A DNA stretch of 64,000 nucleotides from an uncultured Gammaproteobacteria bacterium (GCA_964646995.1 CAZYIF010000001.1:157528-221527), one strand, 5' to 3'; counted from the first letter of the stretch, positions 3,160-61,106 are shown. Made by a program: numbers and translations. Notes: generated by a model from the sequence alone, not told the origin.

Positions 3160-3385
3160 AAACCTATTCAGCGTTTTTGCTGAATATACCGCTAGCTCTT
3201 CAATATGTGAATTTTGATGGGTAAGTCGCGCGGTATACCCTGTTTCTAGAACTACGAAAAGTAAGTTTTCGCTCGGTCACCCAAGGGGAAAACCGCGATT
3301 CTCCCCTTGGGGAACCCCATCGCGAGAAGAACACTGCAAAATGCGAAAATCGCATTTTGAAATGGAATGGGTATATATTGCTAGT
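3160..3385. repeat. MITE/REP-like repeat family A, copy 1 (about 200 bp, nested palindromes)
   Basis: Shares ggtaagtcgcgcggtata.cctgtttctaga...cacccaaggggaGAATCGCGATTCtccccttggg...caaaatgcgAAAAtcgcattttg...gggtatata with copies at 6776, 8032 and 38060. Confidence 0.75.
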
Positions 3386-3438
3386 GATGGTAATCAGCGG
3401 TATAGCCGACTGGTTTTGCGCGAGCAAGAGGAGAGAAC

Positions 3439-4339
3439 TATGGCGGAATTATCGCCGTTACCGTTGGTGGATGCACGTGCAGATTGGCGCGATTATTTGG
3501 AATTATGTAAGCCGCGCGTGGTGGCTTTAATGGTATTGACCGCGCTGGTAGGAATGTATTTGGCGTCGCCCCATGCGGTGTCGTGGTCATTACTGTGTTA
3601 CGCTGTGCTAGGCATTGCATTGGCTGCCGCTTCTGCAGCGGTCATTAATCAGTTGGTCGATAGTGCAATCGATGGGGTGATGGTGCGTACGCAGGGCAGG
3701 CCATTACCTGCTGGGCGGCTATTGCCACAGCATGCGTGGTATTTTGCGGGAATTTTAGCAATTTTCAGCATGTTGATTTTAGTTTTCTACGTTAATTTAT
3801 TAACGGCTATCTTAGCGTTTTTGACACTCATTGGTTACGCTGGGATTTATACCTTATACCTCAAACGCGCGACACCACAGAATATTGTGATAGGTGGTTT
3901 TGCCGGTGCTGCGCCACCCTTGTTGGGTTGGACAGCGGTAACAGGGCACATTGAGCCACAAGCGTTATTGTTAATGCTCATTATCTTTGTATGGACACCG
4001 CCGCATTTTTGGGCGCTGGCTATTCATCGCTACAAAGAATATGCCAAAGCCAATATTCCCATGTTGCCGGTTACACATGGCATACCGTTTACACGGTGGA
4101 GCATCGTGTTATATACCGTGTTATTAGCTGCGGTGACCACGTTGCCCTTTGTGATTGGAATGAGTGGATGGTTGTACCTCGGTGTAGCAACGCTATTAAA
4201 TGCGGTATTTTTATATTGGGCAATACGCTTGTTGGTCTCACAGCGCGTTGATGTGGCATTTAAAACGTTTCGCTATTCTATTGCTTATCTCACTGTTTTG
4301 TTTGTGACTTTGTTAGTGGATCATTACGTCATCGTATAG
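3439..4339 (+). CDS. ctaB: Protoheme IX farnesyltransferase (heme O synthase)
   Basis: [27 protein letters not shown] and the UbiA-family motifs. GAGGAGAG RBS. The ORF upstream of 3439 is the family-A repeat, not coding. Confidence 0.9.
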
Positions 4340-4347
4340 GAAAAAGT

Positions 4348-4989
4348 ATGCAACACGTATGGAAGAAGCGTTTGATGATTTTGTTGGTGTGCCTGCTGAT
4401 AGTGAGTAGTGGTATGGGAGCGTATTACCAGTGGGTCGTGCGCCATCGTTTACCGGCTTCTTCTGTTGCTTATCCAGAGCCAATGCTTGCTGAGTCGGTA
4501 CCCATGCATAAGTTTTATTTGCGTGATGACACCGGTGATACGTTTACTAACGCGAATTTACTCGGACACTGGAGTATTTTGTTTTTTGGCTTTACCCATT
4601 GCTCTGGTGTTTGTCCTACGACGATGGCTTATCTCAATCGATTTTGGCATGAGGTTAAAGCGACGCACACATTACCCGTACCAACGGTTGTCATGATATC
4701 GGTAGATCCACAGCACGATGATGTAGCCACTATGGCGCGCTACGTGCATACATTTAATGCCAATTTTATTGGTTTGACGGGAGATGAACAACAAGTGCAG
4801 CAACTGGCGCGCGAGTTACATATTGCGTATGCACCGAAGTACGCCGGCACTGCATCGAGTGATGATCTGGTGCATACAAATGCGTTATTGTTGGTAAACC
4901 CATTGGGGCAATTACGTGCGGTGTTCACCGCGCCATTTGACTCGAAAAAAATGTTGAAGGATTTTTCCAGCATTACAGCACAGTCTTAG
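4348..4989 (+). CDS. SCO1/SenC copper chaperone
   Basis: GHWSILFFGFTHCSGVCPTT (CxxxCP) motif, N-terminal TM anchor, and position in the cox cluster. Confidence 0.85.
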   Translation: MQHVWKKRLMILLVCLLIVSSGMGAYYQWVVRHRLPASSVAYPEPMLAESVPMHKFYLRDDTGDTFTNANLLGHWSILFFGFTHCSGVCPTTMAYLNRFWHEVKATHTLPVPTVVMISVDPQHDDVATMARYVHTFNANFIGLTGDEQQVQQLARELHIAYAPKYAGTASSDDLVHTNALLLVNPLGQLRAVFTAPFDSKKMLKDFSSITAQS

Positions 4990-5043
4990 CGATTGTGTTA
5001 GCGGCACAAAGGAGATAGCGTTGCGTATGAAAAAGAGGGCGCC

Positions 5044-58864: not shown

Positions 58865-59455
58865 TTAGCGAGACGGCGGCGCCAGCAGTTGCATGAGCGA
58901 TGTGGTGATGATGTTTTGGTACTGCTGTAATTTTTTCGGGTGTTTGGCGAAGGTATTGACGTGATTGAGTAAGGCGCCGCAGGTCATGCTGTGGATCAAG
59001 ATTTTAATGGCCTCAGCCGGCCAGTCATGCCGTATCAGCTGGCGTTGTTGTAGCTTGCTGATGTGCGTGGTCCATAGCTTGGGTGAGAAATCCGTGGTGC
59101 CTTGTAGCGTTTCATCATTTTCTAATTGTTGCCACTGCAAGAGACGACGCACGGTGGGGTTTTGATACAGGCGCATGTGGTGATTCACGATCGTTGTGAT
59201 AAATTCCTCGAGGTTAGTGGCTACGTGAGTGGGAGGTAGGGTGTGACATTGATTAAAAATATGGCCTTTGACCGCTTTCCACAGGTTCTTTTTATTATCG
59301 AAATAGTGATACAGCAACGCCGAGTTAACCCCCGCCTGCTTGGCGATGTCTAACATTGCCGTACCATCAAATCCTTTGACAATAAAGATTTCGGTAGCGG
59401 CATTCAAAATTGTTATGCGGGTCTGTTCGCCCTTAGCCAGCAGTGGCGTATCCAT
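58865..59455 (-). CDS. TetR/AcrR-family transcriptional repressor
   Basis: N-terminal HTH ..TRITILNAATEIFIVKGFDGTAMLDIAKQAGVNSALLYHYFDNKKNLW.. Confidence 0.85.
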   Translation of the reverse strand: MDTPLLAKGEQTRITILNAATEIFIVKGFDGTAMLDIAKQAGVNSALLYHYFDNKKNLWKAVKGHIFNQCHTLPPTHVATNLEEFITTIVNHHMRLYQNPTVRRLLQWQQLENDETLQGTTDFSPKLWTTHISKLQQRQLIRHDWPAEAIKILIHSMTCGALLNHVNTFAKHPKKLQQYQNIITTSLMQLLAPPSR

Positions 59456-59505
59456 CGCATTCTCCTTTACGGTTATTGCAGCACAGCGTAATGGACGCGC
59501 TGGGT

Positions 59506-59585
59506 TCGGTCAAGTGTATTTTTAACTAAACAGTTAACTCGTGCTTGACAAGCGCATCCACGCCACGTATATTTTTAACTAAACA
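59506..59585 (+). promoter_or_regulatory. Sigma-70 promoter TTGACA-N17-TATATT (59534-59562) flanked by two copies of the palindromic operator TTAACTAAACAGTTAA (59512-59527 and 59565-59580), in the TetR-MFS divergent region
   Basis: Seen directly. A perfect 16-bp inverted repeat duplicated 53 bp apart, bracketing consensus -35/-10 hexamers oriented toward the MFS gene. Confidence 0.6.
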
Positions 59586-59743
59586 GTTAATTTTAATAAT
59601 GACGCTGTTTTGTTGACGCGAAGAGATGGGGCGACGCGATTTCCCATCGCCCAAGGGGTATGGCCATAGGGACAGGCACAACGGCGATATACCGCTTGCG
59701 GTATACATTCGAGTTTGTGGTGTCACCAAGAGGACATTGAGTT

Positions 59744-60949
59744 ATGCGTACATCGGGTGTCATGTCTCCTATCACACGTGCTGAGTTTATTGTGCTTGCG
59801 ATAACGACGTTTATGGCGTGTTGCAGCATGATAGGTATCGATATTTATTTACCTTCTATGCCAGAGATCATGCGCCAGTTGCATACCGATCAATTACACA
59901 TGCAACAATCGGTTTCTTGGTTTTTATTAGGCTTAGGCGTCAGTTTACTTTTTTACGGTCCGTTATCCGATGTGTATGGACGTAAACCCGTGGTGCTGCT
60001 GGGATTAGCTACGGCAGTGTGTGCCAGCATTGGTTGCGCACTTAGCCATACGGTGATGGCATTTTTAATCTGGCGTGTGGTGCAAGGTGTGGGTTTGGGT
60101 GTGTGCATGGGATTGGGACGCACCATCATCGTGGATGTGTTGCATGAGCGCTATGCCTTGGTAGGCGCGTATTTTGCGATGTTTTTGGGTGTGTCGCCGT
60201 TGCTTGCTCCCGTGTTGGGAGGCTATGTGCAAGTGTATTGGGGTTGGCGCGCCAATTTCTTTTTGCTAGCGCTGCTGGTGTTATGTGCGTTGGTTGCTTA
60301 CGCACTCTGTTGCGGTGAGACCAATACCCACAAAGGCAAAAAAGCGTTTAGCCTGTTGGGTGTATGGCGCGACTATCGTGAGTTGTTGTGCCATCGTTTA
60401 TTTATAGCGTGCGCGCTGCTCAGTGGCATGTGTGCGGCAGTGGGCGTGGTCTACGCTACCAGCAGTGCGTTCATCTTACAAATGGAATTTCACTTATCGG
60501 TGGTGCATTACAGTTGGGCGATGATGTTGGTGGGTGCCGCGAATATTCTGGGCAAATTTTTTGGCCCCATGATCATACGACGTTACGGTCGGGATAGTAC
60601 TTTGTGGATCGGCACGGGCATGATTTTTGTGGCGGGGGCTTTAATCTTGTTGGCTGCTCTCTGTCATCTATTGGGCGTGTCGTGGGTTATCGGCATGGTT
60701 ATTGTCAGCGTCACCGGACAAATGCTCATTATGCCTATGTTGGTGGGCCGCGCGTTGACGCCGTTTCATGACAAACGTGGGGCTGCCGGCGCATTATTTG
60801 GTGGTGCACAAATGGTAGTTGCGTGTGTGAGCAGTGTGTTGATGGCGCTGTTCGCACAGGTTGGGGTAATCGCCTTGGGTGTGGCGTATTGTATATTGGC
60901 ATTGTTGTTGAGTGTGATAATTGTAACTATTCAGCGGCAAAAACGCTGA
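59744..60949 (+). CDS. MFS drug efflux transporter (Bcr/CflA, DHA1 subfamily)
   Basis: 12 TM segments; ..GIDIYLPSMPEI.. and ..LSDVYGRKPVVLLGL.. DHA1 motifs. Divergent from the TetR gene. Confidence 0.85.
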   Translation: MRTSGVMSPITRAEFIVLAITTFMACCSMIGIDIYLPSMPEIMRQLHTDQLHMQQSVSWFLLGLGVSLLFYGPLSDVYGRKPVVLLGLATAVCASIGCALSHTVMAFLIWRVVQGVGLGVCMGLGRTIIVDVLHERYALVGAYFAMFLGVSPLLAPVLGGYVQVYWGWRANFFLLALLVLCALVAYALCCGETNTHKGKKAFSLLGVWRDYRELLCHRLFIACALLSGMCAAVGVVYATSSAFILQMEFHLSVVHYSWAMMLVGAANILGKFFGPMIIRRYGRDSTLWIGTGMIFVAGALILLAALCHLLGVSWVIGMVIVSVTGQMLIMPMLVGRALTPFHDKRGAAGALFGGAQMVVACVSSVLMALFAQVGVIALGVAYCILALLLSVIIVTIQRQKR

Positions 60950-61106
60950 ATAGTGACCCTTGATTTTACGCCTAGCCCAGTAAAACTGGGCGTAACGGCT
61001 CTCAAGGGAGAATCGCGATTCTCCCCTTGAGAATCCTCATCGCGTAATGAATAACCTGCATTTACCGGCAAAAAACAGCTTAGCAATTTGCTGAATAGTT
61101 ACTGGT
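60923..61106. repeat. MITE/REP-like repeat family B, copy 6 (inverted), overlapping the last 11 codons of the MFS gene
   Basis: gtaactattcagcggcaaaaacgctgaatag ... cctagcccagtaaaactgggcgtaacggctctcaagggagaatcgcgattctccccttgag ... ttgctgaatagttac. Confidence 0.75.

What the first reader, a model, noticed from the sequence alone, without database searches (positions are those of the whole stretch)
3160..61106. At least four interlinked families of palindromic MITE/REP-like repeats (A, B, C, D) populate the intergenic regions; A and B share the GGGGAGAATC(GCGAT)TCTCCCC core
Family A is about 200 bp (copies at 3160, 6776, 8032, 38060) and contains two nested perfect palindromes: CCCAAGGGGAGAATCGCGATTCTCCCCTTGGG and CAAAATGCGAAAATCGCATTTTG. 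Family B is about 160 bp (12679, 26478 with an internal tandem duplication, 33641, 47275, 49863, 60923). It has GTAACTATTCAGCA/TGCTGAATAGTTAC arms, a cgcgatggggattctcccc core and a CCCAGTGTTACTGGG hairpin. Family C is about 55 bp (43832, 49085). Module D (12601, 38060, 58817, 62100, 33846; inverted at 3181 and 11572) ends in GCTAGCGGTATA and can fuse to A; a 20-bp perfect palindrome GCTAGCGGTATACCGCTAGC sits at 38098. That is more than 15 copies in 64 kb, all non-coding, with no transposase anywhere in the window. These look like non-autonomous mobile elements or structured-RNA repeats, and the shared core motifs suggest modular recombination between families.
Basis: seen in the sequence. Interest (0 to 1): 0.6.

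Follow-up and report, generated by a model that had tools for sequence, protein, structure and literature searches.

The report
Four MITE families sharing a core
The repeats are real and are at least four families of tiny, gene-less transposons (MITEs) that fill about a third of the intergenic DNA of an uncultured gammaproteobacterium. This is a well-known kind of element in new, undescribed families, and two of them oddly carry the same palindromic core.

Summary

- **More copies elsewhere.** A metagenome scan recovered 242 kb of further contigs that carry the same families. In all there are about 40 B, 15 A, about 25 D ends and about 25 C units.
- **Family B is a proven MITE.** It has GTAACTATTCAGCA terminal inverted repeats and an 8-bp target-site duplication: 6.0/8 identity against 2.36±0.32 when flanks are permuted. 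It occurs as 31-34-bp foldbacks, 160/180-nt monomers and dimers.
- **"Module D" is a terminal inverted repeat.** It is the 26-40-nt end (TATACCGCTAGCGAATGA…) of a third MITE family of 67-220 bp.
- **Family A (191 bp)** uses the same TATACCGC ends as D and shows no variable duplication, so a TA target is likely.
- **Family C** is a roughly 105-nt MITE with 31-nt inverted repeats.
- **Shared core.** A and B share a 51-nt nested palindrome (45/51) in the same overall architecture, and copies are recombinant mosaics.
- **No parent or known relative.** I found no transposase, Rfam family, plasmid, viral or literature match.
- **No RNA signal.** G·T and A·C mismatches in the core stem are balanced (40:36), so nothing points to a strand-specific RNA.

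Verdict: new members of a known kind. Interest is modest. The shared core carried by two different transposition systems is the one unusual point.

The parts
12679..12838 (+). Family B MITE, 160-nt form (B1). It has GTAACTATTCAGCA at the left end and a GGTAACTATTCAGCA-TTTT-GCGGAATAGTTAC foldback at the right end. The 8-bp target-site duplication is GTGCATTT / GTACATTT.
26478..26766 (+). Family B dimer (B2, 289 nt), flanked as a unit by the duplication GAAAAAG. Similar dimers occur in L125, L132, L133 and L139.
33645..33803 (-). Family B MITE (B3) with a perfect 8-bp duplication AAATGCAG / AAATGCAG. It lies on the body side of the lone D end at 33866 (no partner D end found), so it is probably nested in a D-type element.
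47272..47348 (+). Partial, degenerate family B copy (B4). Only the right half is present.
49863..50022 (+). Family B MITE, 160-nt form (B5). Its duplication is no longer recognisable.
60923..61102 (-). Family B MITE, full 180-nt form (B6), with the complete nested palindromic core. The decayed duplication matches 6/8.
12544..12577 (+). B-type solo foldback made of two inverted repeats and a loop (34 bp). Its 8-bp duplication is CGGCATTC / CGGCATTT. It is nested inside D element 12493-12659.
3164..3186 (+). Degenerate B-type foldback (CTATTCAGCG-TTTT-TGCTGAATA) abutting the left end of A1.
3185..3375 (+). Family A element (A1, 191 bp). Its ends are TATACCGCTAGC… and …GGAATGGGTATA. It lies between the heme A synthase and heme O synthase genes.
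6781..6971 (+). Family A element (A2). Its left end faces the ankyrin gene start at 6687.
8032..8222 (+). Family A element (A3) with the hairpin-breaking core variant GGATCGATACGCG|ATTCTCCCC. An outward promoter-like site (TTGGCA-17-TATAGT) at 8058→8030 faces the LegB-like dehydratase gene.
38107..38295 (+). Family A element (A4) with a divergent left third. Its TATACCGCTAGC end overlaps the TATA of the adjacent D end, which creates the 20-nt palindrome at 38099-38118.
12493..12659 (.). Family D MITE (167 bp) bounded by inward-facing inverted repeats: TATACCGTTAGCAAATGAGTTAGGTG… and …CACCCCTAAAATTCATTCGCTAGCGGTATA. It carries the nested B foldback.
58637..58856 (.). Family D MITE, full length (220 bp). 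It is homologous along its interior to L130:10281-10497.
62060..62126 (.). Miniature D element (67 bp) that fills the whole intergenic region. In its left inverted repeat, CCGCTAGC is replaced by TTTCTCCT. This reads AGGAGAAA on the - strand and forms the ribosome-binding site 8 nt before the ATG at 62050.
38048..38110 (+). Half D element (right inverted repeat plus about 25 nt) that starts directly after the lptG stop codon.
33822..33866 (+). D-type right inverted repeat that overlaps and supplies the stop codon of holC (33856-34290, -).
11570..11610 (+). Solo D-type end, 73 nt upstream of the putA ORF.
15181..15199 (+). 19-nt D-end remnant in the 8-nt gap between the convergent spoU-like and gpsA genes.
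59688..59705 (.). 18-nt palindrome TATACCGCTTGCGGTATA, made of two A/D-type termini back to back.
43833..43885 (.). Family C, truncated copy with two inverted-repeat halves. Full C elements are about 105 nt with 31-nt inverted repeats (L133:8541-8644, L148:268-373, L145:5947-6051).
49093..49160 (+). Family C, rearranged copy with two inverted-repeat units in direct order. It lies next to a canonical terminator.

Best explanation
The window comes from an uncultured, deep-branching gammaproteobacterium whose intergenic DNA holds at least four families of MITEs. These are short, non-coding elements that transposases encoded elsewhere in the genome moved in trans.

**Shown**
- **Family B.** Any DNA bounded by two inverted GTAACTATTCAGCA(AA) ends is integrated with an 8-bp staggered cut, leaving 8-bp duplications of unrelated sequence. 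This holds for 160/180-nt monomers, for dimers of about 290-330 nt and for 31-34-bp foldbacks.
- **Family D.** It consists of elements of about 220 bp, and deletion derivatives down to 67 bp, bounded by 26-40-nt inverted repeats that start TATACCGCTAGCGAATGA.
- **Family A.** It is a 191-bp element with the same TATACCGC terminus. Its left 53 nt are themselves a TATACCGC…GCGGTATA foldback.
- **Family C.** It is a roughly 105-nt element with 31-nt inverted repeats.
- **Nesting and mosaicism.** Elements insert into or against one another: a B foldback sits in D, B3 probably sits in a D-type element, and A4 abuts D. Copies are 62-98% identical and are recombinant mosaics.
- **Shared plan.** A (reverse complement) and B share a 51-nt nested palindrome and the same plan: single end, hairpin, core, hairpin, foldback pair of ends.

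**Inferred**
- The transposase that moved B was of the IS66 family, because IS66 ends start GTAA and give 8-bp duplications.
- A and D were moved by a second transposase that targets TA, leaving invariant TATA at both junctions with a flank preference of A|TATA…TATA|T.
- The shared core reflects a chimeric origin or gene conversion between families, not a common transposase.
- The solo foldbacks may arise by deletion between B's two direct copies of its inverted repeat.
- The families are mostly old and now probably immobile.
- Side effects on host genes are likely. Examples are stop codons and a ribosome-binding site supplied by D ends, an outward TTCGCA-17-TATAnn promoter-like site at A's left end, and strong hairpins in transcripts.
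For: **Repeats are real and non-random.**

**The families are dispersed beyond the window.** A metagenome scan with B's terminal foldback returned 28 loci (242 kb). Nearly all come from one assembly (JACCDN01), with similar GC content and strong GC skew (of either sign), and they share nothing but repeats with the window. nhmmer finds about 40 B and 15 A copies.

**B target-site duplication.** Among 23 full-length copies, mean identity of the 8-nt flanks is 6.0/8. Ten thousand permutations give 2.36±0.32 with a maximum of 3.78. Only the 8-nt register works: 0.75 identity against about 0.3 for 4-12 nt. Foldbacks and a dimer also carry duplications.

**D ends form inward-facing pairs.** Pairs lie at w12493/12659, w58637/58856, L129 1798/1899 and L130 10281/10497, and the elements share internal homology.

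**C inverted repeats.**

**A termini.** The ends are conserved and no variable duplication appears in any register.

**Shared core.** 45/51 identical, E = 4e-16. The palindrome is kept by compensatory changes: 34 double-change cells against 14.9±4.7, with 0 of 500 shuffles as high.

**Mosaicism.**
- In A, all four combinations of hairpin type and core type occur.
- The same hairpin-breaking core variant appears in both A and B.
- The 20-nt deletion sits on three different B subtypes.

**Other support.**
- All copies are intergenic.
- The window has no transposase.
- Short-read contigs break in the repeats.
- Published IS66 features are an inverted repeat starting GTAAGCG or GTAACCG and 8-bp direct repeats (PMC11946415, PMC12888890).
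Against: - No parent insertion sequence with matching ends was found. No repeat longer than 300 bp other than MITE dimers and one 470-bp tandem duplication exists in the 306 kb. A from-memory IS66 TnpB query found nothing, though this is a weak test. The rest of the genome could not be searched.
- B's inverted repeat is 14-17 bp, against 20-30 bp for typical IS66, and shares only GTAA(C) with them.
- For A and D, no duplication of variable sequence can be shown. Transposition is therefore inferred from the inverted repeats, copy number and nesting, not proven.
- No empty sites were available.
- A's right end matches its left end over only about 7 bp.
- A's orientation follows GC skew in 12 of 15 copies. 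A plain cut-and-paste DDE model does not predict this.
- It was not proven that the metagenome loci come from the same organism as the window.
Confidence: 0.85

Rival explanations
1. Families A, D and perhaps C are REP/REPIN-like palindromic units. A HUH (Y1, RAYT or IS200/IS605-type) transposase would spread them through single-stranded DNA at the replication fork, rather than a DDE enzyme moving them as MITEs.
For: - A shows no target-site duplication of variable sequence in any register.
- The termini occur as bare palindromic doublets: TATACCGCTTGCGGTATA at 59688, TATACCGCTAGCGGTATA in L143, and GCTAGCGGTATACCGCTAGC at 38099.
- A's orientation follows the sign of GC skew in 12 of 15 copies regardless of gene direction (two-sided binomial 0.035).
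- The elements are extremely hairpin-rich, with folding z-scores of -4 to -9.
Against: - D has long (26-40 nt) true terminal inverted repeats around a conserved interior of about 150 nt, with deletion derivatives. That is MITE anatomy, not a 20-40-nt REP.
- No GTAG-type REP head is present.
- No Y1 transposase is present in the window.
- Invariant TATA at both junctions, with an A…T flank preference, fits TA-target duplication.
- B, which shares A's core, clearly has duplications.
- The orientation bias rests on only 15 copies.
Confidence: 0.1
2. The repeats are genes or modules for structured RNAs, such as small RNAs, riboregulators or RNA-stability and processing hairpins. RNA structure is what selection maintains.
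For: - Predicted folds are very stable, with z-scores of -4.3 to -9.0.
- The core stem is kept by compensatory changes.
- B is co-oriented with flanking tandem genes 17:6 (two-sided binomial 0.035).
- MITEs in Coxiella and Neisseria are known to be transcribed and processed (PMC5896051, PMC10969869).
Against: - No Rfam family matches, even at E ≤ 1.
- G·T and A·C mismatches in the core stem are balanced at 40:36, so neither strand is favoured as it would be for an RNA.
- The consensus fold of 23 B copies has almost no covariation term, -0.39 kcal/mol.
- No convincing internal promoter is present.
- A sits in both orientations relative to genes, 5:5.
- Target-site duplications and terminal inverted repeats explain the spread without any RNA function.
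Confidence: 0.05
3. The shared motifs are host regulatory or architectural sites, such as promoters, terminators or binding sites for a nucleoid or methylation protein. Their recurrence would reflect selection at many loci rather than mobility.
For: - D ends often sit 13-110 nt upstream of same-strand genes, or directly at stop codons.
- A's left end scores 10/12 as an outward sigma-70-like promoter at two window copies.
- One D end supplies a ribosome-binding site.
- The core contains four GANTC heptamer repeats (GATTCTC/GAGAATC) in alternating orientation, read directly from the sequence.
Against: - Copies of 160-220 nt, 62-98% identical along their whole length, cannot arise by convergence.
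- Duplications of unrelated sequence flank B.
- Elements are nested in one another.
- D ends face into the 3' ends of convergent genes as often as toward gene starts.
- Promoter-like sites in the region are no more frequent than in shuffles: 11 against 14.7±4.1.
Confidence: 0.04
4. The elements are integron attC sites or other substrates of a site-specific recombinase.
For: - B contains GTTAAGC, which fits the attC R' consensus GTTRRRY (read from the sequence).
- The core has a hybrid-looking variant (GGATCGATACGCG|ATTCTCCCC) and one inverted copy.
- D ends lie immediately after ORFs.
Against: - The flanking genes are housekeeping genes in mixed orientation, not cassettes.
- No integrase is present.
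- No matching R''/L''/L'/R' layout is present.
- 8-bp duplications and terminal inverted repeats are features of transposition.
- The P2-P2 parental site that a recombination model requires was never seen among 11 variant copies.
Confidence: 0.01

Closest known systems
Correia repeat-enclosed elements (CREE / nemis) of Neisseria
   Same: - They are 100-200-bp non-coding elements with terminal inverted repeats that begin TATA, and they insert at TA.
- They occur in hundreds of intergenic copies.
- No parent transposase is known.
- They fold into long hairpins.
- Outward promoters have their -10 box completed at the junction. Compare A's left end, TTCGCA-17-TATA|nn.
- They affect neighbouring genes (PMC10969869). 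TA duplication is from my own knowledge.
   Different: - There is no sequence similarity, and the host lineage is different.
- This genome has four families, not one.
- Family B has 8-bp duplications.
- TA duplication is only inferred for A and D.
- No IHF site was identified.
Coxiella burnetii QMITE2 (and QMITE1)
   Same: - It is a gammaproteobacterial MITE of about 190 bp with 17-29-bp inverted repeats and 7-9-bp direct repeats.
- Truncated versions look like REP elements.
- Copies overlap the 3' ends of genes.
- It appears ancient and immobile, with no parent transposase identified (PMC5896051).
- B's size and duplication length, and the stop-codon overlaps of D ends, parallel these features.
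   Different: - Homology could not be tested, because the sequences are not in the accessible collections or the paper's text.
- QMITEs make up 0.93% of that genome, against 4% of this window.
- No shared core between families is reported there.
- No IS1111 association is seen here.
IS66-family insertion sequences (candidate parent of family B)
   Same: Ends begin GTAA, as in GTAAGCG… and GTAACCG…, and 8-bp direct repeats are characteristic (PMC11946415, PMC12888890). B has GTAAC… ends and exactly 8-bp duplications.
   Different: - IS66 inverted repeats are 20-30 bp. B's are 14-17 bp and match only in GTAA(C).
- No tnpA/B/C genes were found in 306 kb.
- B is non-coding and carries a core unrelated to any insertion sequence.
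E. coli BIMEs / REP-REPIN elements with RAYT transposases
   Same: They are mosaic intergenic arrays of palindromic units combined with other motifs, often at gene 3' ends, and hairpin-forming. The doublets of A/D termini resemble REP doublets.
   Different: - REPs are 20-40 nt, lack target-site duplications and long inverted repeats, and are linked to a Y1 transposase gene.
- Here B has duplications, D and C have inverted repeats of 26-40 nt, and no RAYT is present in the window.

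Membership tests
MITE (miniature inverted-repeat transposable element) | Small size (about 50-800 bp) and no coding capacity | tested here: met
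   Elements are 31-330 bp. No conserved ORF is present, and all copies are intergenic. The size range is from PMC11602168.
MITE (miniature inverted-repeat transposable element) | Terminal inverted repeats of at least 10-15 bp | tested here: met
   B has 14-17 bp, D 26-40 nt and C about 31 nt. A meets this only weakly: 7-8 bp between its two extreme ends, though its left 53 nt form a foldback pair of ends.
MITE (miniature inverted-repeat transposable element) | Target-site duplications of 2-10 bp flanking each copy, differing between copies | tested here: met
   Met for B: 8 bp, 6.0/8 against 2.36±0.32 permuted, and only the 8-nt register works. Inconclusive for A and D, where invariant TATA junctions cannot be told apart from the element's own ends. 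Not resolved for C.
MITE (miniature inverted-repeat transposable element) | Many dispersed copies in one genome | tested here: met
   About 40 B, 15 A, about 25 D ends and about 25 C units occur in 306 kb from 17 or more contigs. Assemblies break in the repeats.
MITE (miniature inverted-repeat transposable element) | A parent autonomous insertion sequence with the same inverted repeats | not testable with these tools
   None was found in 306 kb.
IS66-family-derived element (family B) | Ends start GTAA(GCG) | tested here: met
   B's ends read GTAACTATTCAGCA, so the defining GTAA start is present, but nothing beyond GTAA(C) matches published IS66 ends such as GTAAGCG and GTAACCG.
IS66-family-derived element (family B) | 8-bp direct repeats at insertion sites | tested here: met
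IS66-family-derived element (family B) | A cognate TnpC (DDE) transposase, with TnpA and TnpB, bounded by the same ends | not testable with these tools
   The only test was a weak local tblastn with a from-memory TnpB sequence, which was negative in 306 kb.
REP/REPIN with RAYT | 20-40-nt imperfect palindromes without target-site duplications | tested here: not met
   B has 8-bp duplications. D and C are 67-220 bp with long inverted repeats. Only the bare A/D-terminus doublets look REP-like.
REP/REPIN with RAYT | An associated Y1 (RAYT) transposase gene | tested here: not met
   The window has none. The rest of the genome was not examined.
Correia element (CREE) | The characteristic 26-bp Neisseria inverted-repeat sequence | tested here: not met
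   The A/D ends (TATACCGCTAGCG…) share only the initial TATA with the Correia end as I recall it. The host is a different lineage.
Integron attC | R''-L''…L'-R' sites downstream of co-oriented cassettes next to an intI gene | tested here: not met
   The neighbouring genes are housekeeping genes in mixed orientation and no integrase is present. Inverted repeats plus duplications are found instead.
Any Rfam RNA family | A match to a covariance model | tested here: not met
   There were 0 matches at gathering score. At E ≤ 1, 3 weak matches appeared, none inside an A, B or D element (the two at 48959-49085 overlap the canonical terminator upstream of C2).

The most novel reading that the evidence does not exclude
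The roughly 51-nt nested palindrome (CGCGATGGGGATTCTCAAGGGGAGAATCGCGATTCTCCCC…) is not junk inherited from a parent insertion sequence. It is a selected module, a DNA hairpin or cruciform or a dimeric protein-binding site. Two unrelated transposition systems have captured it independently and spread it: GTAA ends with 8-bp duplication, and TATACC ends with a TA target. Both built it into the same "single end, hairpin, core, hairpin, foldback" architecture. Family A may also move through a replication-strand-specific (single-stranded DNA) route. This lineage would then be an unusually MITE-dense genome in which transposons act as vehicles for one common structural or regulatory DNA element.
Probability: 0.15. 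Interest if true: 0.6.

Novelty: new member of a known kind. Interest (0 to 1): 0.35.

Why it matters
MITEs are common, so the finding does not change how genomes are understood. It does have four uses.

- **New families.** It documents four previously undescribed MITE families in a deep-branching, uncultured gammaproteobacterium. The closest ValS is 69% identical, and no match turned up in plasmid, viral, Rfam or literature searches.
- **Local density.** The window holds about 20 elements in 64 kb, or 4% of the DNA. A census of 183,232 genomes reports a maximum of 123 MITEs/Mb and 1.23% of a genome (PMC11602168). This window is about 3.5 times richer than other contigs of the same assemblage, so the genome-wide figure is probably lower.
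- **Shared core.** Two families with different ends and different insertion chemistry share the same palindromic core and the same layout, and copies are clearly recombinant. This makes a compact natural case for studying how MITE families arise by swapping ends.
- **Practical consequences.** These repeats fragment short-read assemblies of this organism. They also supply stop codons, a ribosome-binding site and promoter-like sequences to housekeeping genes, which matters for annotating its MAGs.

Tried and rejected
- **Genome-collection scan.** I used the 15-nt core pattern. It was too short and returned only chance hits in unrelated taxa (checked). This was my error.
- **Rfam.** Nothing matched the repeats, either at gathering score or at E ≤ 1.
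- **Plasmid collection.** blastn with the D end and with a B copy gave only chance hits or none.
- **Viral contigs.** The core and the B foldback each gave 0 hits.
- **Literature search.** I searched for the motifs and for the assembly and run accessions. The only hits were cloning primers.
- **L126.** A pair of B-like ends 800 bp apart was inspected and lies within ordinary (mostly coding) DNA with no sign of an insertion sequence.
- **Parent insertion sequence.** An all-against-all search of the 306 kb for repeats of 300 bp or more found only MITE dimers and one 470-bp tandem duplication in L131.
- **Consensus RNA folding of 23 B copies.** It showed negligible covariation. Wobble-pair strand asymmetry was absent, so I dropped the RNA reading.
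- **D motif as a promoter or sigma-factor site.** The spacing to any -35-like hexamer does not fit, and half the copies face into gene 3' ends. I rejected this reading in favour of an inverted-repeat end.
- **attC.** Considered and rejected; see the rival explanations.
- **Coxiella QMITE comparison.** Not possible, because no sequence was available.

Full report

Yes. The three diagnostic motifs are far over-represented against dinucleotide shuffles: 8 matches against 0.00 expected, 17 against 0.37, and 10 against 0.18.

A crude gene map shows that all copies lie between genes. It was annotated with NCBIfam and Pfam and with precomputed Pfam hits on identical public contigs. The genes are ordinary chromosomal housekeeping genes, including ctaA/cyoE, putA, valS, holC, lptFG, greA, ftsH, folP, glmM, sodB and glnA. 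None is a transposase.

The repeats occupy 2,561 nt, or 4.0% of the window. About 31% of the intergenic DNA is repeat shared with other loci.

**2. Source organism**

The exact proteins occur only on one 257-kb NCBI contig and in Logan assemblies of three sequencing runs. The best non-self ValS match is 69% identical. The named neighbours, at 63-64%, are Piscirickettsia, a Legionellales MAG and Acidihalobacter. The source is therefore an uncultured, deep-branching gammaproteobacterium.

The short-read contigs end inside B1 (window 12809), inside B6 (61017) and inside a D end (58853). High-copy repeats do exactly this to an assembler.

**3. More copies**

My first collection scan used a 15-nt pattern. 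That was too short, returned only chance matches and wasted the single genome-collection scan.

A metagenome scan with B's 27-nt terminal foldback returned 28 loci (242 kb). Twenty-five of them come from 16 long contigs of one assembly, JACCDN01. These loci have similar GC content and strong GC skew (of either sign) and share only repeats with the window. They are other parts of the same or a very similar genome.

Profile searches of the combined 306 kb find about 40 B copies and 15 A copies. They also find about 25 D ends and about 25 C units.

**4. Family B is a bona fide MITE**

- **Layout.** Full-length copies begin GTAACTATTCAGCA(AA). They end with a foldback, GGTAACTATTCAGCA-TTTT-GCTGAATAGTTAC. 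The element thus carries three copies of a 14-nt end, and the outer two are inverted.
- **Target-site duplication.** In 23 full-length copies, the 8 nt outside each end match each other at 6.0/8 on average, and 6 pairs are perfect. Random pairing of flanks gives 2.36±0.32, with a maximum of 3.78 in 10,000 permutations. Only the 8-nt register gives a signal. The duplicated 8-mers differ from copy to copy.
- **Window examples.** These are GTGCATTT/GTACATTT (B1), AAATGCAG/AAATGCAG (B3) and GAAAAAG around the whole B2 dimer.
- **Size forms.** The commonest form is 180 nt. The 160-nt copies that dominate the window lack 20 nt between two GATTCTC direct repeats. Dimers of about 290-330 nt recur in several loci.
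- **Solo foldbacks.** Foldbacks of 31-34 bp, made of nothing but two ends and a loop, also carry 8-bp duplications. Examples are window 12544-12577 (7/8), L146 (8/8) and L142 (7/8). They could be minimal transposition substrates. They could equally be in-situ deletions between B's two direct copies of the end; that is my inference.
- **Candidate parent.** Ends starting GTAA together with 8-bp direct repeats are the published signature of the IS66 family (PMC11946415, PMC12888890). I name IS66 as the most likely parent. The similarity is limited to GTAA(C), and no parent element was found.

**5. "Module D" is the end of a third MITE family**

D motifs occur as inward-facing pairs. Window pairs span 12493-12659 (167 bp) and 58637-58856 (220 bp). 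Locus pairs span L129 1798-1899 and L130 10281-10497.

The ends are 26-40 nt: TATACCGCTAGCGAATGA(A/G)TT(TT)AGG(G/T)G…. The elements of about 220 bp are homologous internally, and the shorter ones are deletion derivatives.

Other D features in the window:
- Element 12493-12659 contains the nested B foldback, complete with its own duplication.
- B3 lies on the body side of the lone D end at 33866, whose partner end was not found, so it is probably nested in a D-type element.
- A 67-bp D copy fills the entire intergenic region at 62060-62126. In its left end, CCGCTAGC is replaced by TTTCTCCT. On the coding strand this reads AGGAGAAA, 8 nt before the ATG of the 5'-nucleotidase gene, so the ribosome-binding site lies in the MITE end.
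- In 12 of 29 cases a D end lies within ±18 nt of the stop codon of a convergent ORF, or provides that stop. holC is one example. Coxiella QMITEs show the same habit (PMC5896051).

**6. Family A**

- **Ends.** Ten full-length copies are 184-194 bp, starting TATACCGCTCGT… and ending …AATGGGTATA.
- **No variable duplication.** No register from 2 to 10 nt gives a duplication of variable sequence. Only the invariant TATA matches. The bases just outside are biased toward A|TATA…TATA|T. This fits insertion at TA with TA duplication but cannot prove it.
- **Foldback.** A's first 53 nt are themselves a foldback, TATACCGC…GCGGTATA. A therefore uses the same terminus as D.
- **The 20-nt palindrome.**
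- **Promoter-like site.** Reading outward from A's left end, the consensus is TTCGCA-17 nt-TATA|nn. The scan scored this 10/12 at two window copies. At A3 it faces the adjacent LegB-like gene. Correia elements have similar end-borne promoters, which I recall as completed at the junction (for the promoters).
- **Orientation.** A is not oriented with respect to genes, 5:5. It is oriented with GC skew in 12 of 15 copies (p≈0.035). I cannot explain this, and it keeps a single-stranded-DNA (HUH) mechanism alive as a minor rival.

**7. Family C**

The two window copies are truncated or rearranged members of a roughly 105-nt family with inverted repeats of about 31 nt, GGTGTCATCCCGAG(Y)G(Y)AACGAGGGATCTCG. 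Intact copies are seen in L133, L145 and L148.

**8. The link between A and B**

- **Shared block.** The reverse complement of the A consensus and the B-180 consensus share a 51-nt block, 45/51 identical, E = 4e-16. The block is GTGTTYTCTTTACGCGATGGGGWTTCYCAAGGGGAGAATCGCGATTCTCCCC.
- **Shared plan.** Both have a single end, hairpin 1, the core, hairpin 2, a spacer and a foldback pair of ends.
- **Core structure.** The core is a nested palindrome centred on CGCG. Across 30 copies of both families, its stem is kept by compensatory changes. There are 34 double-change cells against 14.9±4.7 in shuffles, with 0 of 500 shuffles as high. Paired cells fall from 81% to 65% or less when the partner columns are slid.
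- **No RNA signal.** G·T and A·C mismatches are balanced at 40:36. The constraint, or the copying process that maintains the palindrome, acts on DNA symmetrically. It does not act on an RNA from one strand.
- **Recombination.** A hairpin-breaking variant of one arm, GGATCGATACGCG, occurs in five A and five B copies and once inverted. Within A, all four combinations of hairpin-1 type and core type exist. B's 20-nt deletion sits on three different left-arm subtypes.
- **Age.** Mean pairwise identity is 80% for B (62-98%) and 84% for A (74-96%). Only 6 of the 23 B duplications are still perfect. The families are therefore mostly old, but a few pairs are recent.

**9. What it is not**

- No Rfam family matches, even at E ≤ 1.
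- The alignment fold of B has essentially no covariation energy.
- Nothing similar was found in PLSDB plasmids or IMG/VR viral contigs. The motifs appear in no paper in the library except as cloning primers.
- No insertion-sequence-sized repeat occurs in the 306 kb.
- Integron attC, REP/RAYT (for B) and a host-regulatory-motif reading each fail a defining test. Details are in the membership table.

**10. Mechanism, with steps marked**

*Shown:* inverted repeats, 8-bp duplications, dispersal, nesting and mosaicism.

*Inferred:*
- An IS66-like DDE transposase mobilised B in trans.
- A second, TA-targeting transposase mobilised A and D.
- The A/B core is shared through a chimeric origin or gene conversion.
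- Foldbacks arose by deletion.
- Hosts have incidentally taken over ends as stop codons, a ribosome-binding site and promoter-like sequences.

**11. Novelty and interest**

These are new families of a very familiar kind of element. Two points lift the finding slightly above routine.

The first is local density. The window has about 20 elements in 64 kb, or 4% of the DNA. A census of 183,232 genomes reported a maximum of 123/Mb and 1.23% (PMC11602168). However, exact B-foldback matches run at 62/Mb in the window against 18/Mb on the 16 JACCDN contigs. The window is therefore unusually rich, and the methods are not comparable.

The second is that two families with different ends and different insertion chemistry share one covarying palindromic core in an identical layout. 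If that core proves to be a selected, functional module, the interest would rise. At present, common descent by end-swapping plus gene conversion is the simpler reading.

Noticed in passing
window 22000-26302: A low-GC patch (0.386 at 22-24 kb) carries a SIR2_2-like gene (22770-23846) and a metallophosphoesterase (24022-24849, -). It also carries a MobH/TraI-like relaxase (24854-26302, -; 122 bits, below the NCBIfam cut-off of 200). This may be a remnant of an integrative element or defence island. The B2 dimer sits at its edge.
   Followed up: partly
window 11835-12258 (-): A histone-H1-like, Lys/Ala/Thr-rich protein of about 141 aa starts MAQRKTATKR…. It has 57-nt tandem coding repeats at 12069-12182 and no Pfam match. 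It resembles the histone-like proteins of intracellular bacteria. The listed ORF start at 12506 is spurious and runs into D element 12493-12659.
   Followed up: partly
window 62060-62126: A 67-bp D-family MITE occupies the whole intergenic region between the uvrD-like gene and the 5'-nucleotidase gene. An 8-nt substitution in its inverted-repeat end creates the Shine-Dalgarno sequence AGGAGAAA for the downstream gene.
   Followed up: partly
window 1-64000: GC skew is uniformly strong and positive (+0.04 to +0.22) with negative AT skew across the whole window. The metagenome loci show equally strong skew of either sign. Family A's orientation follows the skew in 12 of 15 copies.
   Followed up: partly
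window 6019-6687 (-): An ankyrin-repeat protein gives a weak match to the Dot/Icm effector family AnkG/AnkZ/LegA7 (41 bits, far below the cut-off). It hints at a host-associated lifestyle.
   Followed up: no
window 21035-21362 (-): A sub-threshold Rfam match to Rickettsia sRNA47 (35 bits against a gathering score of 60, E = 2e-5) lies inside the S41 protease gene. It is probably spurious.
   Followed up: no
window 49052-49083: A canonical intrinsic terminator, AAAAAGGCCCACTTCGGTGGGCCTTTTTTTTT, lies immediately upstream of the C2 repeat. It accounts for the weak rsmX and STnc100 Rfam hits there.
   Followed up: no
L131:7608-8525: A 470-bp tandem duplication (84% identity) is the only long repeat in the 306 kb other than MITE dimers. 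I did not examine its content.
   Followed up: no
L126, L141, L146 (other metagenomes: MOXF01, VAPF01, Ga0256844): Solo B-type foldbacks occur in contigs from other assemblies. The one in L146 has a perfect 8-bp duplication. The same transposase system may therefore exist in other organisms.
   Followed up: partly
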